Shown in pieces: positions 17,493-54,222 of a DNA stretch of 64,000 bases (the stretch's first letter is position 1; the number at the start of each line of letters is the position of its first letter). This stretch comes from a virus, in the IMG/VR virus record IMGVR_UViG_3300001533_000699, one strand, 5' to 3'. The notes under the pieces were generated by a model that did no database searches, was not told the DNA's origin, and was given only the letters and a program-made list of their open reading frames with translations. A program made the translations under genes and the position numbers.

Positions 17493-19070
17493 ATGAATAA
17501 GAACATTTTTAACACTCAACTGAATAATGTACTGCCAGCAGACACTGTCAATGACGCTGGTGGTGTTGCGTACAATATGTCTAGTGCCGCCGCTTTAGCT
17601 CAATACGCAGTTACAGGTACATTTAATACAACTTATTATGTTAATGATAAACAACACCTACAACGTGTACAAAAACTAGCTCAAGAATGTAGTTCTGAGT
17701 TTTTGGCTAAGCTTGCTGTATATGCACGGCAAGAAGCTAAGATGAAGGATATGCCAGCGTATCTATTGGCTGTTCTTGCTGCCAGAAATGAACATAAACT
17801 ATTGCGTAAGATTTTCGATAGAGTATGCGACAATAGTAAAATGTTGTTTGGTTTTGTGAGTATTATTCGTTCTGGAGTAACCGGGCGACGTTCATTCGGT
17901 ACCGCTATCAAAAAAATGATTCAATCTTGGTTGACACAACAACATAATTGGTCACTATATCTCTCTAGTGTTGGTCATAGTAACCCATCTATGGCAGATG
18001 TAATCAAAATGGTGCACCCAAAGCCAACGAACGAGTATCAAGCGGCTATGTTTTCATATATACTAGGTAAAGAGTGTGATATTAGTAAACTTCCGTTAGC
18101 TGTTAGGCAACTAATCGTATGTAATGGCAACTTTGAAGGGGATATACCAGATGTGCCTTTTCGCGTATTGACAAACTATGATTTAAGCAAAGTGCATTGG
18201 CAACGAATAGCAACACGAATGCCTTGGAATACTTTACGACAATCATTAGTGTTGTTGGGTCGTCGCGGTGTATTTGACTCACAAGATACGGTAGAAAAAA
18301 TAGCACAGCGATTGTCTAATAAAAACGAAGTACTACAGAATAATGTATTTCCTTTTGAGTTGTTGGCAACCTGGAAAGCCACAAAGGATTGTATTCCAAT
18401 CGAAATCACAAATGCGCTATACGATGCCATGGATATTGCCACACACAAAGCGCCTCAATTCAATGGTAAGACTTTGGTCGCCATAGATACTTCGGGTTCT
18501 ATGCAGTGGGCATCATTGACCGGAGCGAGTAATAAGCCTTCTATCATAAGTGTTGTTGAAGCCGCTGCTCTTATTGCGTGTTCTATTTTGCGTAAGAATA
18601 AAACAACAAAACTTATTGGATTTGATTGTGCTCAAGTATTTAATTGTTATACATCAAACGGTATTTATGTTATGGATGATATCAGAGCACATGACAGCGT
18701 TTTTACGAATATGTCAAAGATGTATTTTAATGGTGGGGGAACAGATTGTTCGTTGCCATTCAAATACTTGCTTAGTGAAAATTTGAGAGTAGACAACATT
18801 ATAGTATTGTCAGATAATCAAAGTTGGTCTGGTACATATGGTCCTGGTTCAGCTTCATGTAATGCGTGGACACAATATAAGAAGAGTAACCCTAAGACAA
18901 GGCTTATGTGTGTAGACTTAACACCAAACCAAACAACCCAAGTACCTGACAATAAGGATGTCATAAATATTGGTGGCTGGAGTGACTCGATGTATGGTGT
19001 TATGAGCCAATTCTTCAACGAACATACAGTTGTTAACTTTGTGCAGACTATTAACAATACAGAAATATAA
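17493..19070 (+). CDS. rsr: Ro60 / TROVE-domain RNA-binding protein (Rsr-like) with vWA domain
   Basis: N.AGG.AY, LAQYA.TGTF..TYY, RSG..GRRS.G, D...M.HPKP, DTSGSM MIDAS, GGGTDCS.P, SDNQSW, IGGWSD. Confidence 0.92.
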   Translation: MNKNIFNTQLNNVLPADTVNDAGGVAYNMSSAAALAQYAVTGTFNTTYYVNDKQHLQRVQKLAQECSSEFLAKLAVYARQEAKMKDMPAYLLAVLAARNEHKLLRKIFDRVCDNSKMLFGFVSIIRSGVTGRRSFGTAIKKMIQSWLTQQHNWSLYLSSVGHSNPSMADVIKMVHPKPTNEYQAAMFSYILGKECDISKLPLAVRQLIVCNGNFEGDIPDVPFRVLTNYDLSKVHWQRIATRMPWNTLRQSLVLLGRRGVFDSQDTVEKIAQRLSNKNEVLQNNVFPFELLATWKATKDCIPIEITNALYDAMDIATHKAPQFNGKTLVAIDTSGSMQWASLTGASNKPSIISVVEAAALIACSILRKNKTTKLIGFDCAQVFNCYTSNGIYVMDDIRAHDSVFTNMSKMYFNGGGTDCSLPFKYLLSENLRVDNIIVLSDNQSWSGTYGPGSASCNAWTQYKKSNPKTRLMCVDLTPNQTTQVPDNKDVINIGGWSDSMYGVMSQFFNEHTVVNFVQTINNTEI

Positions 19071-19753
19071 TGAAAAACTACTATTCATTTGCTGGTATGC
19101 AACGTGTTGGTAATCATGCAATTGTCAATTGGTGGATGAAACACTTTAGTTCGTGGTCGGTACGCAATAATATACTTGGACTGCGCTATAATGACCCAGC
19201 AGCACAAACTACAGATATCGGTAGTGATAATGTAGTACAAATTGATACATGGGAAAATTATGACCCTAATGATATCATTGTGTGTAGATTGAGCGAGCCA
19301 ATCATTGTCATTATAAGAGACCCGTATAATTGGTGGGCATCGTGGTTTCAATACACAATACCAAATCAAAATATTCAAGCCATAGACAGAGACAAAACTA
19401 TCGATTGGTATATAAGATATGTTGAATATGCGCGCAACACAAAACGTTGGATATCTTTTAATAATTGGTTTGCTGACACAGACTATAGACGTAGTTTGGA
19501 GCGTCAATATGGTCTGCAAGAATCTGACGCTGGTTTACAAGAACTAATGCGTAGTAATAATGAATTTATTGGTAATGGCAGTACCTTTGATAGAACACGT
19601 TATCACAAAAACGCACAACATATGAAGGTACTCACTAGATACCAAAAATTTTTAGCAGATGATAAATATCTTACACCATTACGCCAACATCTAGAATTGG
19701 CAGATATAGCCAGAGAATTGTTTAATATGGAACCGCCGAAAGGAATATATTGA
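19070..19753 (+). CDS. sulfotransferase-like protein
   Basis: GMQRVGNHAI (5'-PSB-like) and IRDPYNW.AS (3'-PB-like). Confidence 0.6.
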   Translation: MKNYYSFAGMQRVGNHAIVNWWMKHFSSWSVRNNILGLRYNDPAAQTTDIGSDNVVQIDTWENYDPNDIIVCRLSEPIIVIIRDPYNWWASWFQYTIPNQNIQAIDRDKTIDWYIRYVEYARNTKRWISFNNWFADTDYRRSLERQYGLQESDAGLQELMRSNNEFIGNGSTFDRTRYHKNAQHMKVLTRYQKFLADDKYLTPLRQHLELADIARELFNMEPPKGIY

Positions 19754-20265
19754 TGACCAGTATACATGAACTAAAACGCAGAATTCAACGACTAGAACAC
19801 ATTACTAGAAGTACTGTAATCGGCATAGATTTTAAGCGACTCAACACTAATGCACAGCTTCCAATTAAAGCAGGACCAGAAGAAGCGTGTTACGATATTC
19901 ATTGTATAGCAGACGAGTCATTTTCTGACCAAGGAACCATATGTCTTTGTCCTGGTGACAGTCATGTATTTCATACTGGATTAGCATCATATATTCCTAG
20001 TGGATATGGTGTGTTTTTGTGGGATAGGAGCGGAATGGGGGCAAAACGCAACATTCACAGGCTTGCCGGTGTAATTGATAGTACTTACAGGGGAGAGTGG
20101 ATGGTTCCGTTGACCAATTTAGGAAAAAAAGAGCAATACATCAAAGCAGGTGATAGAATCATTCAAGCATATATAGCTGTGATATTGCCAAGCACTGTAC
20201 GGTGGGTCGATGAATTGCCAGAATCGTATCGTGGTGATAGTGGCTTAGGGTCTACTGGCGCTTGA
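19750..20265 (+). CDS. dut: dUTPase (trimeric)
   Basis: ACYD, RSG, GVIDSTYRGE, GDRI.Q, RGDSGLGSTG. Confidence 0.93.
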   Translation: MMTSIHELKRRIQRLEHITRSTVIGIDFKRLNTNAQLPIKAGPEEACYDIHCIADESFSDQGTICLCPGDSHVFHTGLASYIPSGYGVFLWDRSGMGAKRNIHRLAGVIDSTYRGEWMVPLTNLGKKEQYIKAGDRIIQAYIAVILPSTVRWVDELPESYRGDSGLGSTGA

Positions 20266-20278
20266 AATAGGGCAAACA

Positions 20279-20833
20279 ATGATTAATAGATTAAATGGAA
20301 TGCGATGCTATCTGATTGGTGCTATGGACCGCACTGATGATGGTGGTGTACAGTGGCGTGAAGACATTAAAGAATTCCTACATACTAAAGGGGTAGTTGT
20401 ACTAGACCCATGTGACAAACCTATTGACATAGGACAAGAACATATAGAAGACAGAAGTGTGAGACAAACACTGAAAAAGTCTGGACAATATAACTCGCTA
20501 GCAAAAACGATGAAGACAATTCGTGTCATAGACTTACGTATGACAGACATGGCAGACTTCGTGATAGTTCACATTGACACAGACGTACATGCTTGTGGTA
20601 CATACGAAGAATTGTTTTGGGCAAACCGCTTGAAAAACCCTGTACTTATCGTTTGTAAGCAGGGAAAGGCTCAGTGTCCCGATTGGTTGTTCGGGGTCGT
20701 ACCGCACAGGCATATATTTGATAATTTTGAGCAGTTACGTGAGTATTTGGAGTATGTTGCACATAGTTATAGTGTATATCATATGCGTAGGTGGACTTTC
20801 TTTAACTACGAGAAATTAAAATGCCCTATATAA
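20279..20833 (+). CDS. nucleoside 2-deoxyribosyltransferase-like protein
   Basis: YLIGAM....G..WR, DP, D......D, GT.EE...A, PV. Confidence 0.7.
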   Translation: MINRLNGMRCYLIGAMDRTDDGGVQWREDIKEFLHTKGVVVLDPCDKPIDIGQEHIEDRSVRQTLKKSGQYNSLAKTMKTIRVIDLRMTDMADFVIVHIDTDVHACGTYEELFWANRLKNPVLIVCKQGKAQCPDWLFGVVPHRHIFDNFEQLREYLEYVAHSYSVYHMRRWTFFNYEKLKCPI

Positions 20834-21129
20834 AACAAAAATTCAAAGATAAAATAGATGAATCAATACATGCTTTAGTCGATGATATTGAGCAGTGTTG
20901 TAAGGATGATGATAGAGACGCATTAAAAGGTGTGTTAAACTACACTATTACATCTATATTACTAGCAACATTTACAAAGCATGGAATAAGTTATTCTAAA
21001 TTTGCCGATGTTATTGGTACTCTAGAATGTTCAAAGCTAGAAATATATCGACGGGCAATAGCGTCATATGAAGACCGTTGTATACGCAACAACGGAGATA
21101 TAGAAGAGTTTATCCGCATGGGCCTGTAA
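20821..21129 (+). CDS. conserved phage hypothetical protein
   Basis: MPYIK, G.LNY.IT, G.LEC.KLE.YRR....YED.....NGD. Confidence 0.75.
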   Translation: MPYIKQKFKDKIDESIHALVDDIEQCCKDDDRDALKGVLNYTITSILLATFTKHGISYSKFADVIGTLECSKLEIYRRAIASYEDRCIRNNGDIEEFIRMGL

Positions 21130-21408
21130 GGTTTCGACGGGTTGTGAAAGTTTGTGACGGCATTCCGTGGTTCGTCTGATGGCCACGTAAAAATCAGACG
21201 AAAAAAGTAACTGGCACCTGCCATACTTTGGCTCTGTGCGCCTGAGCACAGGTTTCTACTTGTAGAAGCAGCTTAATCTTGTGCTACAACAAGAGCGTAT
21301 AAGCATTTGAGACAGTTTTGTTTGTTGTACAGCTTAACAACATACTATGAATGTAGATGTTACTTATAGAAGCAAAGCCGGACAACGGTTCAATTCCGTT
21401 CAGGTCCA
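21120..21408 (+). ncRNA. ssrA: tmRNA
   Basis: 5' GGGCCTG-TAAGGTTTCGAC; 3' T arm AACGG-TTCAATT-CCGTT and CAGGTCC-A; G3.U pair; pk1-like region then TAACT and tag ORF 21213-21245 (GTCHTLALCA*). Confidence 0.9.
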
Positions 21409-21510
21409 CTGAATCTGATAAGGTGTATAATATAGAAGAAAGCCGATATCAACAAATGGTTTGAGCTTGTTCCTTTCTTTTTGTCTTAAAAATTACATAA
21501 GGAAGTATGA

Positions 21511-23586: not shown

Positions 23587-23841
23587 ATGAGAAGGGTTGG
23601 TATAGCGTTTATCGTTATTGCTATAATTGTGTTTTTGTTTAATAAGCAGGCAAGTGCACCTAGACCACCAATACCGCCAGATAATGAAGAAGAACAAGTA
23701 GTAGATTTTGAAAAGTGGTTTCAACATCACCAACTAGAATGCGATATATGTGAACCTGGATGGCCACCACGCTTATGTACAGAAGCATGGAATAAACTTA
23801 ATGCTCAAAGACTCCACCAAAAGGAGATAGAAAATGAATAA
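23587..23841 (+). CDS. membrane-anchored hypothetical protein
   Basis: N-terminal TM segment; CxxC. Confidence 0.55.
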   Translation: MRRVGIAFIVIAIIVFLFNKQASAPRPPIPPDNEEEQVVDFEKWFQHHQLECDICEPGWPPRLCTEAWNKLNAQRLHQKEIENE

Positions 23842-26818: not shown

Positions 26819-26846
26819 TTGACATTCTAAAAATCTATTGTATAAT
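26819..26846 (+). promoter_or_regulatory. promoter TTGACA-N16-TATAAT
   Basis: Perfect hexamers 11 nt before tRNA-Leu. Confidence 0.7.
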
Positions 26847-26857: not shown

Positions 26858-26940
26858 GGCCGGGTGGCGAAATTGGTAAACGCATCGGTTTTAAGCACCG
26901 ACGCCCTAGCGGCTTGCGGGTTCGACTCCCGCCTCGGCTA
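26858..26940 (+). tRNA. tRNA-Leu(TAA)
   Basis: TCGGT-TTTAAGC-ACCGA; long variable arm. Confidence 0.92.
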
Positions 26941-26941: not shown

Positions 26942-27008
26942 TGACGAATGCAGTAATGCTTACATATCATTGATTAGATTGACAAACAGCATTACATTTT
27001 TGTCGTCA
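26942..27008 (+). ncRNA. candidate minimal Y RNA (Y1)
   Basis: TGACGA/TCGTCA terminal stem, GACGAATG motif, GTAATGCT/AGCATTAC second stem; same architecture at 30144 and 54151. Confidence 0.6.
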
Positions 27009-27030: not shown

Positions 27031-27399
27031 ATGCTGACTGAAATTGCACCAATAGACGTATTTAGTGTTACTACTGGTAAAGTCGTCTATGAAAACGAAA
27101 ATCACAACGCTACTATGTATGCGTTTGATGAAGGCAGGCTCTATAGATATGTCGAGTATCGCAAACTAATTATATACACATGTATACCAACATCAGAAAT
27201 ACTTGAAAAAGCCCAGTATATTCTGAAAATGGCAGCTAAGGATAATCCTAACGTAGTTGATGCGACACATAAGCTATCGATAGATGGAGAAAACATAGTA
27301 TTGGATTTGCGTGACCGCAGCAAGTTTGTGTGCGTCAAACAAGGCAATGTGTGTGGATTGGCAATTTTAGATAGTAGCAAAGTCGGGTCCATCGTCTAG
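27031..27399 (+). CDS. hypothetical protein
   Basis: RBS AGGA; 3' end overlaps tRNA-Lys. Confidence 0.55.
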   Translation: MLTEIAPIDVFSVTTGKVVYENENHNATMYAFDEGRLYRYVEYRKLIIYTCIPTSEILEKAQYILKMAAKDNPNVVDATHKLSIDGENIVLDLRDRSKFVCVKQGNVCGLAILDSSKVGSIV

Positions 27400-30023: not shown

Positions 30024-30051
30024 TTGACAATTGTAAAGATTGTGCTATAAT
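30024..30051 (+). promoter_or_regulatory. promoter TTGACA-N16-TATAAT
   Basis: Perfect hexamers upstream of tRNA-Asp / Y RNA / tRNA-Val. Confidence 0.7.
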
Positions 30052-30067: not shown

Positions 30068-30142
30068 CCTCCGTTGGTCCAGTCTGGAGTGGACGCTGCC
30101 CTGTCAAGGCAGAGAGCATGGGTTCAAATCCCATACGGGGGG
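30068..30142 (+). tRNA. tRNA-Asp(GTC)
   Basis: CTGCC-CTGTCAA-GGCAG; G73. Confidence 0.9.
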
Positions 30143-30143: not shown

Positions 30144-30277
30144 TTTGGTGAATGATGTAAGACATACATGCATTGTAAGCCGTATGTGTAGGTTCAAGTC
30201 CTACTCTCACCGCTTTATGGTGAGATAGCTTAATTGGACAGAGCGACGAAAATTAGTCTTGCTAATTAGTCACCAAA
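30144..30277 (+). ncRNA. YrlA-like Y RNA (Y2) with permuted tRNA-like domain
   Basis: TTTGGTGA/TCACCAAA and GTAAGAC/GTCTTGC terminal stems enclose T arm (30188-30204), closed acceptor hairpin TCTCACC-GCTTTAT-GGTGAGA and D arm (30228-30244). Confidence 0.78.
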
Positions 30278-30279
30278 AC

Positions 30280-30351
30280 GGGCCTATAGTACAATGGTCA
30301 GTGCATATGGTTTACACCCATAAAATGGGGGTTCGATTCCCTCTAGGCCCA
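30280..30351 (+). tRNA. tRNA-Val(TAC)
   Basis: TATGG-TTTACAC-CCATA. Confidence 0.9.
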
Positions 30352-31620: not shown

Positions 31621-32253
31621 ATGAACAAAAATCTTACAGACCTAACCATTATCATGGACCGCAGCGGTTCTATGTTTACCTGCCAACAAGAAGCAGAAAA
31701 TGGACTTAATCATCTAATTGAAGAACAACAAAAAGAGACAGGTGATTGCAACTTCACTCTTGTGCGATTTGATAACGAATACGATATTGTTTACGATGGG
31801 GTGCCAATTAAGGATGTGCAACACGTTAAACTAGACCCGCGTGGTATGACTGCGCTGAACGATGCTGTTGGTAAAACCATCAATACGATTGGAGAAAGAC
31901 TAAGCAAGATGAATGAAGAAGACCGCCCTGGCTTAGTGATGGTGGTTATTGTCACGGACGGTGGAGAGAATGCAAGCCAAGAGTTCACCAGCGATATGGT
32001 TAAGCGTATGATTGAGACTCAGCAGAACCAATATCAGTGGAAGTTCACATTTTTGGGCGCGAATCAAGACGCATTCGCAGAAAGTGCTAAGCTAGGTATC
32101 AACCCACAGTTTGCAGCGAATTATGATGTTGGCAAGAGTATGGATACGATGTGTATAGTAAGCCGTAAAATGAGTGATATGAGATTTGCTCATAGTATAG
32201 GACAACCCGTGTCGCACGCATACACAGACAAAGAGCGTAAAGAAATTCAATAA
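31621..32253 (+). CDS. von Willebrand factor A (vWA) domain protein
   Basis: DRSGSM, G.TAL.DA.G, TDG.ENAS, F.FLGANQD. Confidence 0.9.
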   Translation: MNKNLTDLTIIMDRSGSMFTCQQEAENGLNHLIEEQQKETGDCNFTLVRFDNEYDIVYDGVPIKDVQHVKLDPRGMTALNDAVGKTINTIGERLSKMNEEDRPGLVMVVIVTDGGENASQEFTSDMVKRMIETQQNQYQWKFTFLGANQDAFAESAKLGINPQFAANYDVGKSMDTMCIVSRKMSDMRFAHSIGQPVSHAYTDKERKEIQ

Positions 32254-33260: not shown

Positions 33261-33411
33261 TCTTAGATTTAGTTTTAGTCTGAATCCTATATACTGTCAG
33301 TGTTGGTTCGAACCCAGCTCCCCTCACTTACATATAATTAGAGGGGGTAGCCCAATTGGTAGAGGCAGGTAAGGTGTTTTAGCTTCAGATTATCGCTCTA
33401 ATCTAAACTAC
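33257..33411 (+). ncRNA. circularly permuted tRNA mimic on a long stem (module A)
   Basis: T arm GTTGG-TTCGAAC-CCAGC, acceptor TCCCCTC/GAGGGGG closed by a loop, D arm GCC-CAATTGGTAGA-GGC; outer stems TAGTCTGAA/TTCAGATTA and TTAGATT/AATCTAA. Confidence 0.75.
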
Positions 33412-33414
33412 TAT

Positions 33415-33569
33415 CGTGTTGTTTAATCAAGTTCATTGATGCATTATTGGAAGATGCTAGTTCGATTCTAGCCCCGACATCTTTAGTAATTTAATGTCGG
33501 GTAGCACAAAGGTAGTGTGGCCACTATAAGTATGACATCAATGATTAAACGGATATCGTAAACAACGTG
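33415..33569 (+). ncRNA. circularly permuted tRNA mimic on a long stem (module B)
   Basis: T arm GCTAG-TTCGATT-CTAGC, acceptor CCCGACA/TGTCGGG closed by a loop, D arm GCAC-AAAGGTA-GTGT; outer stems CATTGATG/CATCAATG and GTTGTTTA/TAAACAAC. Confidence 0.75.
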
Positions 33570-34668: not shown

Positions 34669-34673
34669 ACTAC

Positions 34674-36199: not shown

Positions 36200-36201
36200 A
36201 T

Positions 36202-39178: not shown

Positions 39179-39180
39179 TC

Positions 39181-39954
39181 ATGGTTGTATTTCTTATACC
39201 GGTGCGACACCCAAATAGCGCGATAGATTATAATACGACATGGCAGCTTTTAATAGATTCTTTGCGTAATATTTATCGACAAACTGACGGCGATTGGCAC
39301 GCTATAATCACGGCAAATAAAATTCTGCATATGCCGCATGATTTACCGCTAGGCAATATCACGTTTTTAACATACTCTGGGGAAGAGTGTGGTCATACTC
39401 TGAAAAAATGGAATCAACAAAAGTTCCTAAAGCACAACAAAGACAAAGCAAATAAAAGGATGTGCGGAGTCAAATACGCTAAAGAGAATCTGAATCCAAA
39501 ATGGTATTTTATGATGGATGCAGACGACTATATATCTAATGATTTAGTGGAAACCATACACACCTTCCCTGCTAATATTAAATGTGTTACAATTGAGTGT
39601 GGGGTAGTTGTAAATACTATGAACGGTGTATGTACTTTAAATAATGACTTTAATAGATGCTGTGGTACATCTATTGGTTTCAAATCACAGTTCTTACACT
39701 TACATCTACATAATCGACAACTCATGTGGGCGTTATTGGGCAAACACATATTTTGTCAAAGTGGTGCGCATATGTGGAAACGACGTAAATTAGAGGATAA
39801 ACCATACGCAACATATATGATTCATGACGATAACCACGGATTACATTTATGGGGTGCTAAGAATTTGGTCGATACACACCATCAGCCAGTTTCCAACGTA
39901 GACAAAAAACGTCTGGGAATTTTAGGGTTGACAAAAAGAAAAATCCAGCTATAA
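39181..39954 (+). CDS. GT2-like glycosyltransferase
   Basis: FLIP, S...QTD, DK..K, MMDADD, CGTS. Confidence 0.65.
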   Translation: MVVFLIPVRHPNSAIDYNTTWQLLIDSLRNIYRQTDGDWHAIITANKILHMPHDLPLGNITFLTYSGEECGHTLKKWNQQKFLKHNKDKANKRMCGVKYAKENLNPKWYFMMDADDYISNDLVETIHTFPANIKCVTIECGVVVNTMNGVCTLNNDFNRCCGTSIGFKSQFLHLHLHNRQLMWALLGKHIFCQSGAHMWKRRKLEDKPYATYMIHDDNHGLHLWGAKNLVDTHHQPVSNVDKKRLGILGLTKRKIQL

Positions 39955-39955
39955 T
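39928..39955 (+). promoter_or_regulatory. promoter TTGACA-N16-TATAAT
   Basis: Perfect hexamers about 300 nt upstream of ssb. Confidence 0.7.
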
Positions 39956-40260
39956 ACAACTAATAATGACGAACAGATGTTCGCAAACATGGTCTTTAAT
40001 TATGAGTAGTGGCCTCGATATGAGGGTTGCCTGGTAACTTGCTATTACCAATCCGATGGTACTTATGTATCTATGTGACACGGGGGCAACGGTGCTATAC
40101 AAGCTGTACACCTATAGTTTTATTTATTTTAAAAAAGTTTTATGCGACGGCGCTTGCAAACCGCCCACAACATACAGCAATGTAGTTGTACACAACAAGC
40201 AGGACGTAATCTGCGTCCAAACATATTTTTCACTCAAAATAAACACAAAGGAGAAGCTGA

Positions 40261-40686
40261 ATGGCTGGAAGTTTTAACAAGGTCATTATCATGGGTAATC
40301 TAACCCGTGATGTAGAGTTGCGTTATATTCCAAGCGGTACTGCTGTAACAGATTTGGGTATCGCCGTGAACGAAAAGCGTAAAAACACCAACGGGGATGT
40401 TATTGAAGAGACGACATTTGTTGACGTAACTCTCTGGGGGCGTAACGCTGAGGTAGCCTCTAAGTATCTTAGTAAGGGCTCCCCAGTTCTTATTGAGGGT
40501 CGCCTACGTCTTGACCAGTGGGAAAACGCTGATGGAGAAAAGCGACAAAAGATGAAGGTTGTGTGTGACCGCATGCAAATGGTAGGCGGCAACCCAAACA
40601 CAAGCTCAGAAACAGCTAAGAGTTCAGGAACAAAGCAAGAACAAAGTTCTGAACCAGTAGATACGGATGATGACATCCCATTCTAA
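40261..40686 (+). CDS. ssb: single-stranded DNA-binding protein
   Basis: [29 protein letters not shown], acidic DDDIPF tail. Confidence 0.96.
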
Positions 40687-41416
40687 GATAGCGTATTTGT
40701 TTTTGGTATATAGCGATGTATACCATCCACAGGTGTGGGAAAAGTATTTCACTGGCGAATCAGACAACGTAAAAATATGTTGTCATGCCGCCAACAGAAA
40801 GCAAACTACCACACCATTTATACGCAACAATCTGATTCCATACTGGGTTTCTACTAAGTGGGCCGGGCTAGGTTTAGTCTTGGCCCACTTAGAGTTAATT
40901 CGTTATGCTTTACGTGACCCAAGTGTACAAAGGCTTGTGTTGTGTTCAGAAAGCTGTATACCGATTAAGTCATATAAAAAAACTCGCCAACTGTTATTCG
41001 ACACAGACGCTACTTGGTTACGCACTACGACACAATATACCTCAAGAATGTCTCGCGTTACTACAATACCAAAACAACACCACAGACATCATTCTCAATG
41101 GGTAGCTCTAACTAGAGAACACGCCTCTATGTTAGTTCGTTTCAACTTTCTAGGAGATTTTATCAATTGTGTAGTACCAGACGAACATTATGTTGGGTCA
41201 GTATTAGTACATCTTGGCGAAGCAGAACGCATATTACAAAAAAGCCAAACATATGCACAATGGTATAAACTGTCACCGGTTCAGTTCACACCAAGAGAAC
41301 ACACACAAATATCTACTCAATTGATACAAAACTTGAAAAAATCCGATGCTTTATTTGCTAGAAAATTTCCCGCAAATAGTTGCATAAACCAACATTGGAA
41401 GGATATCATAGAGTGA
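40667..41416 (+). CDS. core-2/I-branching (GT14-like) glycosyltransferase
   Basis: KIAYLFL, T.W, SESCIP, SQW..L.R, PDEHY, LFARKF. Confidence 0.8.
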
Positions 41417-42246
41417 GTTTTATACAGAAAGTCAAAACCAGAGTTCATAATGCCAACGAATTCGCTAAATTTAAGAATTTAGTAACTGCATACAGCCTAT
41501 GTATCAAACACGATATTATAATACCAAAGCTGTATTTTATTCTTTCACAAGAAGAAGCTACTGCAACATCATACGAAGATTTATATCATCGTTTACCTAA
41601 TCTGTTCACCATAAGACCAAGCATATTTCTAAATAATAAGTATGATTATATGTTGCGTGATGACGGTCTTACGCTGCATAATTTTGCAACCGGTCAAGAC
41701 GACCAACCACAAAACATATATAAGACCCAATGCGATGCAATGCAAAGCATTGATAATTCTTCTTTATTGTTTGAAGAGTTCCCATTAGTAAATCATGTGT
41801 TACAATACCCCACACACTATCGTTTACACACGTTTTACGGTGGTGTAGCACTAATACAAATAGTTAAAGTCGATGGAAAAATGGGTTGGTGCAATAACCA
41901 GGGTAAGATATTGGCGACCACCAATGACAACACATCCTTACAGTCTCACGACATACCACAGCATAAGGCTATGGAATCGTTAGTGAATGCTGGGCGAAAA
42001 CTATCCCTAGCCACAAAACAACCATATATTAGAATCGACTTTGTGTTATCTACTCACGGCCCTATGTTTAGAAGCTTTGCGTGTATCCCAGGAGATGTTC
42101 GTTCACAAACATTCGCAACATTCTATCAACAAATAGACGAACAACTTGATAATGAGTGGATAGCAGCAGAAGAAAGAATAAAGAATGCCGATAATCCTAC
42201 CACAAAACCAACAATTAGTACAGACACGCCAGATGACAACGCCTAA
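41380..42246 (+). CDS. ATP-grasp-like protein (TupA-like, degenerate)
   Basis: LLFEEF, YR.H.F.G, YIRIDF, PG motifs. Confidence 0.5.
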   Translation: MHKPTLEGYHRVSFIQKVKTRVHNANEFAKFKNLVTAYSLCIKHDIIIPKLYFILSQEEATATSYEDLYHRLPNLFTIRPSIFLNNKYDYMLRDDGLTLHNFATGQDDQPQNIYKTQCDAMQSIDNSSLLFEEFPLVNHVLQYPTHYRLHTFYGGVALIQIVKVDGKMGWCNNQGKILATTNDNTSLQSHDIPQHKAMESLVNAGRKLSLATKQPYIRIDFVLSTHGPMFRSFACIPGDVRSQTFATFYQQIDEQLDNEWIAAEERIKNADNPTTKPTISTDTPDDNA

Positions 42247-43195
42247 GATTGATGTAGTAGACCTAACTGGTACATTGTGTTGTATCAGTAGTTATTTTAA
42301 TCCAATTGGTTGGAAAAGTAGATATGATAATTTTTGCATATTCTATGAACGCATGCTGCGTCAAAACGTCAATCTGTTAATTGGTGAAGTAGCATTACAT
42401 GATAGAGGTTTTCAACTACAAAATATTGTCAACGAAGAGCACCTAGCTTTTCAATTATGTGCACCAAATATATTGTGGCACAAAGAAAGCGTTTTGTCCT
42501 TACTATTGGGGCACCTTCCTGCTAATTGTGATAAAGTATGTTGGATAGACGCAGATATTTTAGTACAAAACAATGATTGGGTAGAACAAATAAACAATGC
42601 GCTCAATATGTATCGCGTTGTACAAGGCTTTAATTGGTGTGGAATGCTGCCTCACGGAGTAGAAGACGTTGACCGCATCGGAATTCATAGTTTTCCCACG
42701 GGTTTTCAAGACTGTCATAAATGCTATAGCTACATCAATGGCTTATTGAATAATGAACCGAAGTATTATAGTGGACAGCCAGGAATAATGTGGGCAGCTC
42801 GACGCTCTGTGTTAGAACGCATAGGATTCTATAAACATTGCGTCCTTGGTGGGGCAGACTATCTAACGGCGCGAGCGATGGCATACAAACATTATGACCC
42901 AAAAACATGTGAATTATTTAGTAAATTTAATTTAGCAACATATTTTCCATGGGCGCAAAACTGTGCGGAACAAGTAGACTTTAGCATTAACTATGTGTCT
43001 AATGTGGTATATCATTTGTATCATGGTCATATAGACGATAGAGGACACAACCATAGGCTACAACTACTTCGTGAGCTAGAGTTTGACCCACGAATAGATA
43101 TCAATGAACTAGAGAATGGTCTATGTAACTTCACAGATATTGGGGAAAGATTCATGGAGCCAACCAAACAGTTTTTTATACAAAGGAAAGAATAA
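42185..43195 (+). CDS. GT-A fold glycosyltransferase-like protein
   Basis: YFNP, WHKE..L, WIDAD, PG..WA.RR, LGG.D, HLYHG. Confidence 0.7.
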   Translation: MPIILPQNQQLVQTRQMTTPKIDVVDLTGTLCCISSYFNPIGWKSRYDNFCIFYERMLRQNVNLLIGEVALHDRGFQLQNIVNEEHLAFQLCAPNILWHKESVLSLLLGHLPANCDKVCWIDADILVQNNDWVEQINNALNMYRVVQGFNWCGMLPHGVEDVDRIGIHSFPTGFQDCHKCYSYINGLLNNEPKYYSGQPGIMWAARRSVLERIGFYKHCVLGGADYLTARAMAYKHYDPKTCELFSKFNLATYFPWAQNCAEQVDFSINYVSNVVYHLYHGHIDDRGHNHRLQLLRELEFDPRIDINELENGLCNFTDIGERFMEPTKQFFIQRKE

Positions 43196-44259
43196 TGGAC
43201 CTTAACTATATGGCACCAATCAATCCTCTGGGATATGGCAATGTGGGTGTAAATATTCTATATGCGCTTGTTCAGCAAAATGTAGACGTAAAACTATGGC
43301 CAATTGGTAAGGTATACTGTGCTAAACAATATTCGGCTATCGTAGAACATGCTAGAGATACACGCCATTGGTATAATGTATCAGCAACTAGTCTAAAACT
43401 ATGGCATCAGTTTGATTTAGCTCAACATGTTGGCCATGGCATGCACATCGGATTTCCTATTTTTGAACTCGATAATTTCACAGACCAAGAATATCGAGAG
43501 CTTGACGGTGTGGATATGTTATTTGTGTGTTCGCAGTGGGCTAAGAGTGTAATAGAAAAAAGATTACCCCATACTAAGTCTAAGGGCAACGTAGTTGTTG
43601 TGCCACTAGGAGTAGACCGCAATATATTTCATGAAAATATAGGCACGCCAGAACCACAGTGGACTACATTTCTCAATATTGGTAAATGGGAATACCGTAA
43701 GGGACATGACGTAATATGTGAAGCATTTTCTAAAGCATTTGAACCAAAAGACCGAGTACGGTTATGGATGATGAATCACAATCCATTTTTAACCACAGAA
43801 CAAACACTCAAGTGGCATCAGACATATAAAAAATCCCGCATGGGACACCGCATTAGTTTTCTCAGTCGCGTGGAAACGCAAGAACAAGTGGCGAAAATTA
43901 TGTCAGAAGCTGATTGCGGCGTATTTCCTGCCAGAGCCGAAGGATGGAACCTAGAATTACTAGAAATGATGTCATTGGGTAAGCCTGTAATTACTACGAA
44001 CCTAGCTGGACACACAGAGTTTTGTAATCATAATAACGCACTGCTAATTGACGTAACCGAACAAGAAATTGCGCATGATGGTGTATTTTTCGTGGAGCCT
44101 GTGGGTAGCTGGGGAAAGTTTGAGAAAAAAGATATAGACCAACTAGTAGAATACATGCGATATGTTCATCTACATAAACCTGACAACACCAACGGTATCA
44201 CTACTGCTAAACAATTTTCTTGGCAAAACACAGCCTCAATTATCAAAACCCATATTTAG
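43195..44259 (+). CDS. GT4 (GT-B) glycosyltransferase
   Basis: LGVD...F, GKWEYRKG.D, FP.RAEGWNL.L.E.M..GKPVI.T. Confidence 0.88.
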   Translation: MDLNYMAPINPLGYGNVGVNILYALVQQNVDVKLWPIGKVYCAKQYSAIVEHARDTRHWYNVSATSLKLWHQFDLAQHVGHGMHIGFPIFELDNFTDQEYRELDGVDMLFVCSQWAKSVIEKRLPHTKSKGNVVVVPLGVDRNIFHENIGTPEPQWTTFLNIGKWEYRKGHDVICEAFSKAFEPKDRVRLWMMNHNPFLTTEQTLKWHQTYKKSRMGHRISFLSRVETQEQVAKIMSEADCGVFPARAEGWNLELLEMMSLGKPVITTNLAGHTEFCNHNNALLIDVTEQEIAHDGVFFVEPVGSWGKFEKKDIDQLVEYMRYVHLHKPDNTNGITTAKQFSWQNTASIIKTHI

Positions 44260-44765
44260 GAGAAACAAGTGTTTGTATTAGATAGAGCACGTAAAAAAAA
44301 GACGGTCCATAAGCTACAATCCAAACAAATAGCAGAAATTATCGACAATAATGGTAAACATAGCATTATAAGAGACCATCAAAATAAACACTGGATGACA
44401 GTTCCTAGTGCTAGCGGCGTAGATTTATATCCAATGGAACAAATATAGGAGAATACATATGTCTGTAGAATTTCCAAGAGATGACATTGTAACCGAAGTG
44501 ATTAGCCCTAGTGTAGGGCAAGAAAATGAATTGGAAGCTGGCGAATATATAATTATTGTACCCGAAGGTCAGAAAGCTATAATTAGATATGAAAAAATCT
44601 AATGATATACCAGAATGGATGAAAGAACGTACTATACATGTGATATACTTACGTGATATAGGATATGATTCAAGTACTTTATCAAATGCAACTAACAGTG
44701 ATGTAAAGAAATGGTACGAAGCAGAGAAAACTAAGCAGGGAAGCCCACCCTGCTAATTTTTCGTC

Positions 44766-44793
44766 TTGACTTTTGTGTATTTTGGTGTATAAT
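44766..44793 (+). promoter_or_regulatory. promoter TTGACT-N16-TATAAT
   Basis: Upstream of tRNA-Ala. Confidence 0.65.
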
Positions 44794-44805
44794 ATGGTTG
44801 TCTGG

Positions 44806-44881
44806 GGGCCAAGGGATACTGTTGGGAGTATCACTAGTCTTGCAAACTAGGTTTTCGCCGGTTCGATTCCGGCTTGGTCCA
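44806..44881 (+). tRNA. tRNA-Ala(TGC)
   Basis: CTAGT-CTTGCAA-ACTAG; G3.U70 in GGGCCAA/TTGGTCC. Confidence 0.85.
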
Positions 44882-44883
44882 CT

Positions 44884-45057
44884 ATGCTAATGAAAAAAAT
44901 AGTCATTACACACATAAAAGACCATAGATTAGAAGAAATTGGTCTGTGTGTTGGCCAAGTAGTTTGGTTATTGCAAAAGAACCCATTGATTATTAAGGTC
45001 AATCACTATAGTAAGTTGTGCTTAAGAGACTTGATAGAATATGAGTATCAACAATAA
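44884..45057 (+). CDS. FeoA-like SH3 domain small protein
   Basis: 57 aa, below the ORF-track cutoff: ...HRLEEIGLCVGQVV.LLQKNPLIIKV...SKLCLR. Confidence 0.5.
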   Translation: MLMKKIVITHIKDHRLEEIGLCVGQVVWLLQKNPLIIKVNHYSKLCLRDLIEYEYQQ

Positions 45058-45060
45058 TGA

Positions 45061-45224
45061 TGTGTCACCTACATACTAGCTATAGATGGTAAAGTGGTGA
45101 GGTAATCAGGATAAGCTTAATCCTGGCGAGTAGTGGTTTAGCGGCCATGAAGCGCGACACATGCTACAGAACAGCCCGACTATGAATCGGTAACTGAAAG
45201 TTGTGTGACACGAGGGAGAGACCC
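45061..45224 (+). ncRNA. candidate structured ncRNA
   Basis: TGTGTCAC/GTGACACG closing stem with internal hairpins CAGGAT/ATCCTG, CCGA/TCGG, TAAC/GTTG. Confidence 0.45.
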
Positions 45225-45229
45225 GACAT

Positions 45230-45300
45230 GCGGGTGTCGTATAATGGTAATACTTTTGGCTTCCAACCAAATGATGCCCGTTCGATTCGGGTCACCCGCA
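45230..45300 (+). tRNA. tRNA-Gly(TCC)
   Basis: TTTGG-CTTCCAA-CCAAA. Confidence 0.9.
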
Positions 45301-45316
45301 CTAAATTGATACAAAT

Positions 45317-45388
45317 GGCTCGTTGGTGTCAAAGTAGCATACTTCTCTCTTAAAGAAGTTGGTCTCAGTGCAAGTCTGGGGCGGGCCA
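45317..45388 (+). tRNA. tRNA-Lys(CTT)
   Basis: CTTCT-CTCTTAA-AGAAG; atypical T loop TGCAAGT. Confidence 0.75.
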
Positions 45389-45412
45389 CTATTTATACCT
45401 GGACGTTATTAT

Positions 45413-45482
45413 GGCCCCTCCGAGGGATTGCGGCTTGATGACTACGAATCATTGATGGGCGGTTCAACTCCGTTAGGGGCTA
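45413..45482 (+). tRNA. tRNA-Arg(ACG)
   Basis: GATGA-CTACGAA-TCATT; GGCCCCT/AGGGGCT; weak D arm. Confidence 0.72.
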
Positions 45483-45502
45483 CTTGCGGTAGCTGAATGA
45501 CG

Positions 45503-45550
45503 GCACCGGTCGCGCGATGCACCTGTCGTGCGATGCACCTGTCGTGCGAG
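45503..45550 (+). repeat. 3 x 16-bp tandem repeat matching the D arm of the downstream tRNA-Ile
   Basis: GCACCGGTCGCGCGAT, GCACCTGTCGTGCGAT, GCACCTGTCGTGCGAG versus GCACCGGTCGTGCGAT at 45569-45584. Confidence 0.9.
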
Positions 45551-45559
45551 GCTCCAAAT

Positions 45560-45631
45560 GGTATGTGCGCACCGGTCGTGCGATTTTGCCTGATAAGCAA
45601 AATGTGTAGAGTTCGACTCTCTAACATACCA
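45560..45631 (+). tRNA. tRNA-Ile(GAT)
   Basis: TTTGC-CTGATAA-GCAAA; GGTATGT/ACATACC. Confidence 0.82.
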
Positions 45632-45655
45632 CTTCACTATGTATGAAAGGTTAGC

Positions 45656-46090
45656 ATGTATATAAATCATTGGCGACACAAAATTAACATTGACTCGTAC
45701 GCTCATATGAAAGCAGTACGTTATTGTGTAAAGCATTATGTGTCTGGTGACCCAGAGGCGTTGGAAGCGTACTATTTTCCTTTGGGAACACAAAATAATG
45801 AAATACGCTTGGTGGTTGTAAGTGAATCGCGAACCAAACCACAATATAGTTCAGAAAACGCTACAATAAATTTTGGCGTTAGAGTTAAGGGCTTTCTATA
45901 TACATTGATAATCATAGACTTAAATGAAACAGAGTGGCGACATGTTTTAGACGAAACGTTATCACTACCTATTGCATTTAATATGAACTATGTTCAACAA
46001 GTGTACAATAGAGACATTGTTAAAATTGACAATAAAAACGACATCATCAGTACTCGTTATAGATATAATACAACTAGTTTGTTGGAATAG
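45656..46090 (+). CDS. hypothetical protein
   Basis: ORF with RBS. Confidence 0.55.
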   Translation: MYINHWRHKINIDSYAHMKAVRYCVKHYVSGDPEALEAYYFPLGTQNNEIRLVVVSESRTKPQYSSENATINFGVRVKGFLYTLIIIDLNETEWRHVLDETLSLPIAFNMNYVQQVYNRDIVKIDNKNDIISTRYRYNTTSLLE

Positions 46091-53590: not shown

Positions 53591-53624
53591 ATCTGGGGTG
53601 GGAAACCACCCTAGATATTTATTT
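53591..53624 (+). terminator. intrinsic terminator
   Basis: ATCTGGGGTGG-GAAA-CCACCCTAGAT plus T-rich tail. Confidence 0.7.
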
Positions 53625-53660
53625 ATAGTATCTACCAGTAACACCACGGAGTAACCACCA

Positions 53661-54038
53661 ATGAATGAACATAATGAATGCCCATTAACAACTCAAGAAA
53701 TATGTATTATGAAATTTCGTAATATTAAAGGTGCTTTAGCTGCTATACTTGGGTTGTTTACTGTACTTTTGGCTCTTGTAATATATGCCAGTAATCAAGC
53801 TTCTGGAGCAACAAATCAGTATATCAACGTAAAAGAGCGTATGAATACGTTATCGCTAGAAGTCAATACACAAACTATCGAACGCAAAGTTTCTGATAAA
53901 GTAATAATGACAAAAATGGCAGAGCTACAAGAAGAACTAGTGGCACAGAGGCATGAGCAAAGGCAACTACTAGAACGTATTTTATCACTACAGATAGAAT
54001 TTGCTAAACAAATGCGACTTGACAGCAGTCAAAATTAG
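53661..54038 (+). CDS. single-TM coiled-coil protein
   Basis: TM segment followed by heptad-rich region. Confidence 0.6.
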   Translation: MNEHNECPLTTQEICIMKFRNIKGALAAILGLFTVLLALVIYASNQASGATNQYINVKERMNTLSLEVNTQTIERKVSDKVIMTKMAELQEELVAQRHEQRQLLERILSLQIEFAKQMRLDSSQN

Positions 54039-54046
54039 TGTATAAT
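54019..54046 (+). promoter_or_regulatory. promoter TTGACA-N16-TATAAT
   Basis: Upstream of a tRNA/Y RNA cluster. Confidence 0.7.
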
Positions 54047-54081
54047 ACAAGTACCCCGGCGACAGGGATAATTGTCGCGCC

Positions 54082-54149
54082 GCCGATGCGAACGGGTTCG
54101 GGTCTGGTCTTGTAAACCGGACTACTGGGGTCAGCACCCAGCTTCGGCT
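54082..54149 (+). tRNA. atypical tRNA-Thr(TGT)
   Basis: TCTGGT-CTTGTAA-ACCGGA; GCCGATG/CTTCGGC; non-canonical T loop GTCAGCA and tiny D arm. Confidence 0.55.
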
Positions 54150-54150
54150 C

Positions 54151-54222
54151 TGACGAATGCGGTGATGCATACATAAACCAATGACATCGTTTATACGAAG
54201 TGCATCACATCACTAGTCGTCG
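54151..54222 (+). ncRNA. candidate minimal Y RNA (Y3)
   Basis: TGACGA/TCGTCG stem, GACGAATG motif, GTGATGCA/TGCATCAC stem, ATAAAC/GTTTAT apical stem. Confidence 0.62.

What the first reader, a model, noticed from the sequence alone, without database searches (positions are those of the whole stretch)
17493..54222. Phage Ro60 with a dispersed family of three Y RNA candidates hidden in tRNA trailers
Seen: a full-length Ro60/TROVE gene, plus three elements 8-35 kb away (26942-27008, 30144-30277, 54151-54222) with one architecture. Each has a terminal stem ending GA/TC, an internal loop ATGNN opposite ...T(T/A)G, then a 7-8-bp stem starting GT(A/G)A. The pairing is kept despite sequence change (GACGA/TCGTC vs GGTGA/TCACC; GTAATGCT/AGCATTAC vs GTAAGAC/GTCTTGC vs GTGATGCA/TGCATCAC). 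Each begins 2 nt after a tRNA discriminator (Leu-TAA, Asp, Thr-TGT). Established: bacterial Y RNAs carry a GNCGAAN(0-1)G motif in the Ro-binding stem and usually lie next to rsr. Inference: one Ro60 uses several interchangeable RNAs with different effector domains, released by tRNA 3' processing. Searches limited to rsr-proximal DNA would miss them.
Basis: partly seen in the sequence, partly recalled or inferred. Interest (0 to 1): 0.88.

Follow-up and report, generated by a model that had tools for sequence, protein, structure and literature searches.

The report
Phage Ro60 with tRNA-joined Y RNAs
An uncultured tRNA-rich phage encodes the RNA-binding ring protein Ro60 and three partner-type "Y RNAs" 8 to 35 kb away among its tRNA genes, each joined end-to-end to a tRNA; the RNA-protein pair is a known kind, but I found no paper describing this scattered, tRNA-linked layout.

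Summary
The window encodes a full-length Ro60 (TROVE + vWA). Exactly three RNAs share one "handle": a terminal stem ending GA/UC, an AUGNN internal loop, a 7-8-bp stem, then UACAU.

- **Y2** is a YrlA-type permuted tRNA mimic. Rfam YrlA gives 39.7 bits, E 3e-5 window-wide, below the 69-bit cut-off.
- **Y1 and Y3** are short hairpins without a tRNA-like part.

A covariance model built only from 33 elements of other Ro60 phages scores Y1 at 39.9 bits and Y3 at 32.7 bits. Y2 is a weak third hit (13.2 bits, E 0.16); nothing else scores better.

In 77 Ro60 phage loci the handle occurs 138 times on the Ro60 strand and 12 times on the other. Thirty-six copies start 0-10 nt after a tRNA (0.9 expected). 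The closest relative carries the Y2 counterpart at the syntenic place, 12.5 kb from Ro60.

Ro60 and each tRNA-Y unit sit behind four of the window's seven perfect TTGACA-N16-TATAAT promoters.

One caveat: the "tRNA-Thr" before Y3 is only a tRNA-like cloverleaf.

Phage Ro60 with Y RNAs is published, but only next to Ro60. This scan has noted similar arrays in other phages. Nothing here is experimental.

The parts
17429..17456 (+). Perfect sigma70-type promoter (TTGACA-N16-TATAAT), 37 nt upstream of the Ro60 start codon
   Evidence: one of only 7 perfect matches in 64 kb (0.14 expected).
17493..19070 (+). Ro60 / TROVE + vWA protein, 525 aa, full length
   Evidence: Pfam PF25045 66.6 bits and PF05731 38.6 bits. 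PDB 2NVO Rsr E 1.4e-18 over residues 18-508. Homologues align over 96-100% of its length.
26819..26846 (+). Perfect sigma70-type promoter, 12 nt upstream of tRNA-Leu(TAA)
26858..26940 (+). tRNA-Leu(TAA), leader of the Y1 unit; followed by C-T, no CCA encoded
   Evidence: ARAGORN; Rfam tRNA 56.2 bits; trailer.
26942..27008 (+). Y1: short Y RNA (handle plus A/U-rich loop, no tRNA-like part), followed by ACTTTTT
   Evidence: MFE fold. Rfam YrlA stems 19.4 bits. Model R2, trained without the window, 39.9 bits, E 1.1e-9.
30024..30051 (+). Perfect sigma70-type promoter with TG extension, between tRNA-Phe and tRNA-Asp
30068..30142 (+). tRNA-Asp(GTC), leader of the Y2 unit
30144..30279 (+). Y2: YrlA-type Y RNA. 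Handle plus an extra hairpin, T-arm (GTAGG-TTCAAGT-CCTAC), closed 7-bp acceptor-like stem and D-arm. It fills the tRNA-Asp/tRNA-Val gap exactly.
   Evidence: Rfam RF02553 39.7 bits over model positions 1-114, E 1.5e-7 locally and 3e-5 window-wide. Fold z = -4.2. Inner helices covary in alignment A5. Counterpart in the closest relative at the syntenic place.
30280..30351 (+). tRNA-Val(TAC), directly after Y2
54019..54046 (+). Perfect sigma70-type promoter upstream of the tRNA-like element and Y3
54082..54149 (+). tRNA-like cloverleaf (anticodon-like TGT, T-loop GTCAGCA); not a canonical tRNA
   Evidence: Not called by ARAGORN at default or by Rfam tRNA. Called only at -ps80, and the MFE fold is a cloverleaf. 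It has the same C-T trailer as the tRNAs.
54151..54222 (+). Y3: short Y RNA, paralogue of Y1 (5' 26 nt 88% identical), followed by TTTTT and then two tRNA-Met
   Evidence: Fold; R2 32.7 bits, E 1.8e-7; blastn Y1 against Y3. No Rfam YrlA hit.
54229..54300 (+). tRNA-Met(CAT) directly after Y3
33277..33394 (+). Possible further member: YrlA-like permuted tRNA mimic in a long closing stem, with a degenerate handle (CUGAAUCC)
   Evidence: Rfam YrlA 18.8 bits, E 0.23 locally; fold; no R1/R2 hit. Low confidence.
33432..33548 (+). Possible further member: YrlA-like permuted tRNA mimic with a non-canonical handle (UUGAUGC, no UACAU)
   Evidence: Rfam YrlA 33.5 bits, E 1.3e-5 locally and 0.0018 window-wide; fold. 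Moderate confidence.
31621..32253 (+). Stand-alone vWA-domain protein (210 aa) in the tRNA island; possible accessory
   Evidence: Pfam VWA E 6.7e-5, just under the cut-off. Homologues at 33-43% identity within 10 kb of Ro60 in 11 of 77 loci, including Mx1.

Best explanation
The phage makes a Ro60-Y RNA ribonucleoprotein whose RNA genes are built into its tRNA operons.

**Transcription.** Ro60 and three tRNA-led units (tRNA-Leu-Y1; tRNA-Asp-Y2-tRNA-Val; tRNA-like-Y3-tRNA-Met-tRNA-Met) each sit behind a perfect TTGACA-N16-TATAAT promoter. The host RNA polymerase probably transcribes them strongly and together.

**Processing (inferred).** Each Y RNA starts at the U that follows C74 of the upstream tRNA. 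Y2 and Y3 end a few nucleotides before the next tRNA. The enzymes that trim tRNA ends (RNase P at the downstream 5' end; RNase Z, or RNase E with exonucleases, at the upstream 3' end) would therefore release them as discrete RNAs of about 70 and about 135 nt.

**Binding (inferred from homology).** Ro60 binds the shared handle: terminal stem ending GA/UC, AUGNN internal loop, second stem, UACAU.

**Variable parts.** The interiors differ: a permuted tRNA mimic in Y2, and A/U-rich single-stranded loops in Y1 and Y3. They probably present Ro60 to different partners. By analogy with Deinococcus, Salmonella and Thermus phage phiLo, the partners would be host PNPase or enzymes that recognise tRNA.

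**Shown:** sequence, structure, conservation, covariation, genomic linkage, promoter matches.
**Inferred:** expression, processing, Ro60 binding, effector function.
For: **Identity as Y RNAs**
- Rfam YrlA aligns Y2 end to end (39.7 bits), with the handle and all three tRNA-like arms.
- Y1 matches the consensus letters CGAAUGC...UUGUCG.
- Model R2, trained on 33 elements from other phages only, scores Y1 at 39.9 bits and Y3 at 32.7 bits. Y2 is the third-best hit in the window and nothing else scores.
- UACAU after stem 2 is invariant in alignments A3/A4 although the descriptor did not require it. It occurs in 120 of 138 plus-strand hits.

**Structure is real**
- I chose 194 sites by the 5' motif alone. 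Of these, 65 have a perfect 12/12 3' partner, against 1 in each control.
- In 33 long elements, the T-arm, acceptor-like stem and D-arm show compensatory changes.

**Link to Ro60**
- 138 hits lie on the Ro60 strand and 12 on the other. For strict hits the split is 72 against 1.
- Many hits sit in the classical place just upstream of Ro60.
- In a reverse motif scan of IMG/VR, 9 of 21 records with a true handle encode Ro60, against 1 weak match in 25 chance-motif records.

**Dispersal and tRNA joining in relatives**
- 36 of 138 elements start 0-10 nt after a tRNA (random mean 0.9, maximum 5). Sixteen are flanked by tRNAs on both sides.
- G001 (Ro60 56% identical) has YrlA hits of 58 and 45 bits 12.5 kb from Ro60. 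The first abuts tRNA-Phe.
- G002 has copies adjacent to Ro60 and 10, 17 and 20 kb away.
- Mx1 has two copies 11 kb away.

**Co-regulation**
- Four of the window's 7 perfect promoters (0.14 expected) precede Ro60 and the three units.
- In G001 and G002, perfect promoters sit directly before Ro60 and before short Y RNAs.

**Published precedent**
- Phage Ro60 binds phage-encoded Y-like RNAs and assembles with host PNPase (PMC12135203).
Against: - No expression, end-mapping or binding data exist for this phage.
- None of the three reaches Rfam's gathering score of 69 bits, and Y3 gets no Rfam YrlA hit at all.
- Y2 has UGAA where the motif has CGAA. In phiLo, a C-to-U change in that motif weakened binding about 3-fold.
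- Y1 lies in what could equally be the 5' leader of ORF 27031-27399.
- The element before Y3 is not a canonical tRNA, so its processing is less certain.
- R2 does not recognise the experimentally validated phiLo Yrl RNAs, nor anything in Bxz1, Karimac or CcrColossus. The tie to validated Y RNAs therefore rests on Rfam YrlA alone.
- Four phage genomes rated complete carry strong handle RNAs but no Ro60. The handle does not always imply a phage-encoded partner.
Confidence: 0.75

Rival explanations
1. The handle RNAs are real and conserved but work mainly with host factors (the host's own Rsr/Ro60, PNPase or tRNA enzymes). They would act as decoys or sponges, not as dedicated partners of the phage Ro60.
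For: Four IMG/VR phage records that CheckV rates 100% complete have R2 hits of 35-44 bits but no TROVE protein, even at E <= 1. Three of the window's RNAs lie 8-35 kb from Ro60 and have their own promoters.
Against: The handle is strongly tied to Ro60 genes and to their strand. Ro60 and the Y units share the same rare perfect promoter. phiLo Ro60 binds its own phage's Y-like RNAs.
Confidence: 0.12
2. Y1 and Y3 are ordinary tRNA-trailer hairpins (terminators, processing signals or 5'-UTR structures) that resemble the Y RNA stem only by chance. Only Y2 is a Y RNA.
For: Y1 and Y3 are short. Their fold z-scores are modest, -2.2 and -2.1. Both are followed by a T5 run. Y1 precedes an ORF. Y3 has no Rfam hit.
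Against: R2, trained without them, gives E 1e-9 and 2e-7 and nothing else in 64 kb. They carry GACGAATG, AUGC and UACAU at the register seen in elements that sit directly upstream of Ro60 in other phages. The descriptor expects 0.16 hits by chance.
Confidence: 0.05
3. Y2 (and the two modules at 33277-33548) are decayed or rearranged tRNA genes with no function of their own.
For: They contain T-arm and D-arm sequences. Rfam tRNA gives a sub-threshold 23-bit hit inside Y2.
Against: The arm order is permuted (T-arm, closed acceptor, D-arm), exactly as in YrlA, and is enclosed by the conserved handle. This architecture recurs with compensatory changes in 33 elements from many phages, and in the closest relative at the same place.
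Confidence: 0.03

Closest known systems
YrlA (Rfam RF02553): the tRNA-mimicking Y RNA bound by bacterial Rsr/Ro60 and found in mycobacteriophages (Chen et al. 2014, PMC4201824)
   Same: Y2 has the same plan. The 5'/3' ends pair into a stem, internal loop and stem carrying the G-N-C/U-G-A-A-U-G motif. This encloses a T-arm, a closed acceptor-like stem and a D-arm in permuted order. The Rfam alignment covers the whole model. It lies on the same strand as Ro60.
   Different: It scores 39.7 bits against a 69-bit cut-off. It carries an extra hairpin and has U for C in the CGAA motif. It lies 11 kb from Ro60, whereas the published sets were limited to 4 kb. It is butt-joined to tRNAs on both sides, and the published search discarded hits overlapping tandem tRNAs.
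YrlB-type short Y RNAs (Salmonella, M. smegmatis) and Yrl1/Yrl2 of Thermus phage phiLo (PMC12135203)
   Same: Y1 and Y3 are short stem-bulge-stem RNAs with the CGAA motif and no tRNA-like domain. They occur alongside a YrlA-type RNA and a phage Ro60. The phiLo RNAs bind phage Ro60 and join host PNPase.
   Different: phiLo's RNAs lie directly upstream of Ro60, while these lie 8 and 35 kb away behind a tRNA or tRNA-like leader. My handle model does not score the phiLo RNAs, so the sequence relationship is distant. There is no Rfam family for short bacterial or phage Y RNAs to test against.
Myxococcus phage Mx1 (OR576727.2): the closest cultured phage, Ro60 37% identical
   Same: Ro60 is embedded in a tRNA island. 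Two unannotated handle RNAs (record 45170-45293 and 45522-45623) lie 11 kb upstream of Ro60, each 1-5 nt after a tRNA or tRNA-like element. A stand-alone vWA protein lies nearby.
   Different: The gene order differs (the RNAs are upstream of Ro60), and GC content is higher. None of this is annotated in the record.

Membership tests
Ro60 / TROVE protein family | TROVE (HEAT-repeat ring) domain above Pfam's cut-off | tested here: met
   PF05731 38.6 bits against a cut-off of 23.
Ro60 / TROVE protein family | C-terminal Ro60-type vWA domain | tested here: met
   PF25045 66.6 bits against a cut-off of 27.7, residues 326-507.
Ro60 / TROVE protein family | Full-length homology to a solved Ro60 | tested here: met
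   2NVO (Rsr) E 1.4e-18 over residues 18-508. Also human/Xenopus Ro60 and phiLo Ro60.
Ro60 / TROVE protein family | Binds Y RNA / misfolded RNA | not testable with these tools
   Needs EMSA or RIP.
YrlA (Rfam RF02553) | Score at or above Rfam's gathering threshold (69 bits) | tested here: not met
   Y2 39.7 bits; Y1 19.4 bits; Y3 no hit; 33432-33548 33.5 bits.
YrlA (Rfam RF02553) | GNCGAAN(0-1)G motif in the 5' strand of the terminal helix (Chen 2014) | tested here: met
   Y1 and Y3 have GACGAATG. Y2 has GGTGAATG, with one deviation (C to T) and a compensating 3' A.
YrlA (Rfam RF02553) | Ends pair into stem, internal loop, stem | tested here: met
   MFE folds; descriptor; pairing test on 5'-motif-selected sites, 65/194 against 1/194.
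YrlA (Rfam RF02553) | tRNA-like domain: T-arm, closed acceptor-like stem, D-arm in permuted order | tested here: met
   Met for Y2. Not met for Y1 and Y3, which are therefore YrlB-like and not YrlA.
YrlA (Rfam RF02553) | Encoded within about 4 kb of Ro60 on the same strand (criterion of the published census) | tested here: not met
   Same strand, but 7.9, 11.1 and 35.1 kb away. There is no handle RNA within 4 kb of Ro60 in the window.
YrlA (Rfam RF02553) | Bound by Ro60; carries tRNA-type modifications; RNase P substrate | not testable with these tools
   Experimental features.
tRNA (the claimed tRNA-Thr(TGT) before Y3) | Recognised by standard tRNA detectors | tested here: not met
   No call by ARAGORN at default or -ps, and no Rfam tRNA hit at E <= 10. 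Found only at -ps80. The T-loop GTCAGCA is non-canonical.

The most novel reading that the evidence does not exclude
In tRNA-rich Ro60 phages the Y RNA genes are true members of the tRNA operons. They would be transcribed from the same early consensus promoters as Ro60 and cut out by the tRNA-end machinery. Several RNAs with different interiors would programme one Ro60 for different jobs, the main job being surveillance, repair or protection of the phage's own tRNA pool during infection, for example against host anticodon nucleases. Related Ro60-less phages would carry the same RNAs to hijack or block the host's Rsr.
Probability: 0.2. Interest if true: 0.75.

Novelty: new variant of a known kind. 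Interest (0 to 1): 0.5.

Why it matters
Bacterial and phage Y RNAs have been catalogued almost entirely by looking next to the Ro60 gene. This window, and about 77 related phage loci, show that many lie elsewhere: inside tRNA arrays, joined base-to-base to tRNAs, and in several copies with different interiors. If that is right, three things follow.

- The published census undercounts them.
- Their ends are probably made by RNase P and RNase Z, a biogenesis route not described for Y RNAs in the papers I could search.
- Ro60 would be tied functionally to the phage's tRNA set.

The analysis also yields a compact, testable handle consensus (GAAUGC - stem - UACAU ... UUG-UC). And it points to a cultured model, Myxococcus phage Mx1, where the idea can be tested.

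Tried and rejected
**Tools and papers not available**
- No whole genome is held for this window. The rest of the phage could not be scanned.
The long contigs of the closest protein hits could be reached only through IMG/VR.
- Two Wolin-lab reviews and the supplementary tables of Chen 2014 are not held. I could not check whether tRNA adjacency is mentioned there.

**Searches that found nothing useful**
- A single-protein scan of viral contigs found nothing. A profile scan was needed.
- No close DNA relative exists in the GenBank phage set; only tRNA matches came back.
- blastn of the two extra modules at 33257-33569 against all loci found only tRNA-like fragments.
- The region 44200-45700, with long tRNA spacers, holds no further YrlA-like RNA.

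**Limits of model R2**
- R2 finds nothing in phiLo, Bxz1, Karimac or CcrColossus, which encode Ro60 but are distant. The model is specific to a subfamily.
- Its silence in T4, T5 and KVP40, which are tRNA-rich and lack Ro60, is therefore only a weak negative control.
- Rfam YrlA hits in Bxz1 and Karimac were weak, 20-32 bits. I did not follow them up.

**Ideas dropped**
- GTATAAT alone is not enriched, 23 against 20 expected. Only the full two-box promoter is.
- Covariation counts in A3 were set aside as evidence, because my descriptor had imposed those pairs. The test on sites selected by the 5' motif alone replaces them.

Full report
**What is in the window.**
- ARAGORN and Rfam find 25 tRNA genes and a tmRNA, all on the + strand.
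- The ORF at 17493-19070 is a full-length Ro60. Pfam gives vWA_Ro60 66.6 bits and TROVE 38.6 bits. It matches D. radiodurans Rsr (2NVO) over residues 18-508 at E 1.4e-18, and also animal Ro60 and Thermus phage phiLo Ro60.
- The best cultured relative is Myxococcus phage Mx1, at 37% identity. Metagenomic relatives reach 56%.
- No close DNA relative exists in the GenBank phage set.
- Surrounding genes are dUTPase, a nucleoside 2-deoxyribosyltransferase-like protein, an RNase H-like protein, many glycosyltransferases and a sugar-modification cluster. This is an accessory region of a large phage.

**The observation.**
- The three elements are at the stated coordinates and read as described. Each folds with a terminal stem, an asymmetric internal loop and a second stem.
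It finds exactly these three on both strands, against 0.16 per shuffle.
- Y1 begins 2 nt after the discriminator of tRNA-Leu(TAA). Y2 begins 2 nt after that of tRNA-Asp and ends 2 nt before tRNA-Val. Y3 ends about 6 nt before tRNA-Met.
- The one weak point is the 'tRNA-Thr(TGT)' before Y3. Neither ARAGORN at default nor Rfam calls it. It appears only at a relaxed threshold and folds as a cloverleaf with an aberrant T-loop.
- That element does share a striking property of this phage's tRNAs. In 24 of 25 tRNAs the discriminator is followed by C-T, not CCA. In all three units that T is the first base of the Y element (Y1, Y2) or sits just 5' of its first paired base (Y3).

**Are they Y RNAs?**
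- Rfam's YrlA model aligns Y2 over its full length at 39.7 bits (E 1.5e-7 in the local search, 3e-5 over the whole window). The alignment covers the handle, the T-arm, a closed acceptor-like stem and the D-arm.
- The same model aligns the two stems of Y1 and the conserved letters CGAAUGC / UUGUCG at 19.4 bits. It does not report Y3.
- All scores are below the family's 69-bit cut-off, so I do not file them as Rfam YrlA members.
- For an independent test I collected Ro60 loci from IMG/VR with a profile of 28 Ro60 proteins, giving 80 loci. I scanned them with the descriptor.
- The MAFFT alignment of 33 short elements from other phages shows an invariant UACAU just after the second stem. The descriptor never asked for it, and Y1, Y2, Y3 and the Mx1 element all have it.
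- Covariance model R2, built from those 33 elements only, scores Y1 at 39.9 bits (E 1e-9) and Y3 at 32.7 bits (E 2e-7). Y2 is the third-best hit (13.2 bits), and nothing else in the 64 kb scores.
- I also avoided the circularity of a pairing-based descriptor by choosing 194 sites from the 5' motif alone. Of these, 65 have a perfect 12/12 3' partner, against 1 in each of two controls.
- For the long form, an alignment of 33 elements including Y2 yields a consensus with T-arm, acceptor-like stem and D-arm. Each shows compensatory changes that were not imposed by selection.

**Link to Ro60, and the layout in relatives.**
- Over 77 non-redundant Ro60 loci the handle occurs 138 times on the Ro60 strand and 12 times on the other. 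For strict hits the split is 72 against 1.
- Many copies sit in the classical position just upstream of Ro60. This ties the handle to the published kind of Y RNA.
- 36 of the 138 begin 0-10 nt after a tRNA end, against a random mean of 0.9 and maximum of 5 in 2000 permutations. Sixteen fill a tRNA-to-tRNA gap.
- Whole-record scans show dispersal elsewhere too:
  - The closest relative, G001 (Ro60 56% identical), has YrlA hits of 58.2 and 45.5 bits 12.5 kb downstream of Ro60. The first is butt-joined to tRNA-Phe and ends 10 nt before tRNA-Leu. Its stems are GGTGA and GTGAGAC, close to Y2's. The order Ro60 - tmRNA - tRNAs - Y is the same as here.
  - G002 (173 kb, rated complete) has copies adjacent to Ro60 and about 10, 17 and 20 kb away.
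  - Mx1 has two unannotated copies 11 kb from Ro60, each after a tRNA or tRNA-like element.
- As a reverse test I scanned IMG/VR for a 15-base handle motif. Of 46 new records, 21 have a true handle by R2, and 9 of those encode Ro60. Of the 25 chance-motif records, only one has a weak partial match.
- Four records rated complete have strong handle RNAs and no TROVE protein at all. I could not explain this.

**Promoters.**
- Only seven perfect TTGACA-N(15-19)-TATAAT sites exist in the window (0.14 expected).
- One lies 37 nt before the Ro60 start codon. Three lie 12-36 nt before the tRNA or tRNA-like element that leads each Y unit.
- In G001 a perfect promoter precedes Ro60, and in G001 and G002 perfect promoters precede short Y RNAs. 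There the predicted start site coincides with the Y RNA 5' end.
- This points to strong, coordinated transcription of Ro60 and its RNAs by the host polymerase. It is a consensus match, not evidence of activity.

**Mechanism.**
- I think the units are transcribed as tRNA-Y(-tRNA) precursors. The tRNA-end enzymes then release Y RNAs whose paired ends are flush with the cuts.
- Ro60 then binds the handle. In phiLo each base of CGAA contributes to binding, and the phage Ro60, Y-like RNA and host PNPase form a ternary complex (PMC12135203).
- The different interiors (a tRNA mimic, or A/U-rich loops) plausibly recruit different partners.
- All of this is inference from layout and homology.

**Comparison with what is known, and novelty.**
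- Chen et al. 2014 found YrlA-type RNAs in 254 bacteria and 22 phages. They reported only hits within 4 kb of Ro60 and discarded hits overlapping tandem tRNAs (PMC4201824).
- The phiLo study describes two RNAs directly upstream of Ro60.
- In three literature searches I found no paper that describes Y RNAs interleaved with, and butt-joined to, tRNA genes far from Ro60. Two relevant reviews and the 2014 supplements are not held, so I cannot exclude a mention there.
- The RNP itself is a known kind. The dispersed, tRNA-linked, multi-copy organisation and its implied biogenesis are a new variant.
- Earlier notes of this scan describe comparable handle-RNA arrays among tRNA genes in other phages, so this is a recurrent pattern and not a singularity of this window.
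- One such note on this same window led me to two further YrlA-like permuted tRNA mimics at 33277-33394 and 33432-33548 (18.8 and 33.5 bits). They lack the canonical handle. They may extend the family to five members.

**Verdict.**
- Interest is moderate. A specialist would find the layout and the promoter link informative and testable, but not very surprising.

Noticed in passing
window 33257-33569: Two tandem modules of about 155 nt sit directly after the stop codon of the DUF7873 ORF (32526-33260). Each is a long closing stem around a T-arm, a closed acceptor-like stem and a D-arm. Rfam YrlA gives 18.8 and 33.5 bits, but the canonical GAAUGC/UACAU handle is absent. They may be divergent Y RNAs.
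   Followed up: partly
window 574-603(-), 2989-3016, 17429-17456, 26819-26846, 30024-30051, 39928-39955, 54019-54046: Seven perfect TTGACA-N16/18-TATAAT promoters (0.14 expected). Four drive Ro60 and the three tRNA-Y units. The other three precede an ORF at 3075, about 100 nt of untranslated sequence before 40056, and about 240 nt of non-coding sequence on the minus strand.
   Followed up: partly
window, all tRNA genes (25609-54661): In 24 of 25 tRNAs the discriminator is followed by C-T; tRNA-His is the exception. C74 is therefore encoded, but the rest of CCA is not. This implies CCA completion after a uniform 3' cut.
   Followed up: no
window 31621-32253: A stand-alone vWA-domain protein (210 aa) lies between tRNA-Gln and tRNA-Ser. 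Homologues at 33-43% identity lie within 10 kb of Ro60 in 11 of 77 phage loci, including Mx1. It may be a third component of the Ro60 system.
   Followed up: partly
L128:4046-4100, L135:8091-8143, L118:382-512 and 617-678, L142:1553-1616 (IMG/VR records G037, G043, G031, G048): Four phage genomes rated 100% complete (48-77 kb, two with terminal repeats) carry strong handle RNAs (35-44 bits with R2). They have no TROVE/Ro60 and no homologue of the vWA protein.
   Followed up: partly
window 21120-21411: Phage-encoded tmRNA (Rfam 108.8 bits), 2 kb downstream of Ro60. Relatives G001 and G002 also carry a tmRNA, and in G001 it sits in the syntenic position downstream of Ro60.
   Followed up: no
L182:6442-6536 (G001) and G002 147019-147120: In two relatives a short Y RNA has its own perfect promoter, and the predicted transcription start falls on the first bases of the Y RNA. 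In G001 a tRNA follows 8 nt later, so the order there is Y then tRNA. In this window the order is tRNA then Y.
   Followed up: partly
L187 (Streptomyces phage Karimac NC_048724.1), e.g. locus 16642-16890, 23625-23771, 8200-8511: The Ro-like gene lies in a tRNA island. Several small 'hypothetical protein' CDSs begin 1-4 nt after a tRNA gene. They may be unrecognised RNA genes. Only one weak YrlA hit (23.6 bits) was found in the record.
   Followed up: no
window 33841-44259: A run of sugar-modification genes: NAD-dependent epimerase, polysaccharide pyruvyl transferase, an FrhB/FdhB-like 4Fe-4S protein, several glycosyltransferases, a Core-2/I-branching enzyme and a TupA-like ATP-grasp protein. 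It lies between tRNA clusters.
   Followed up: no
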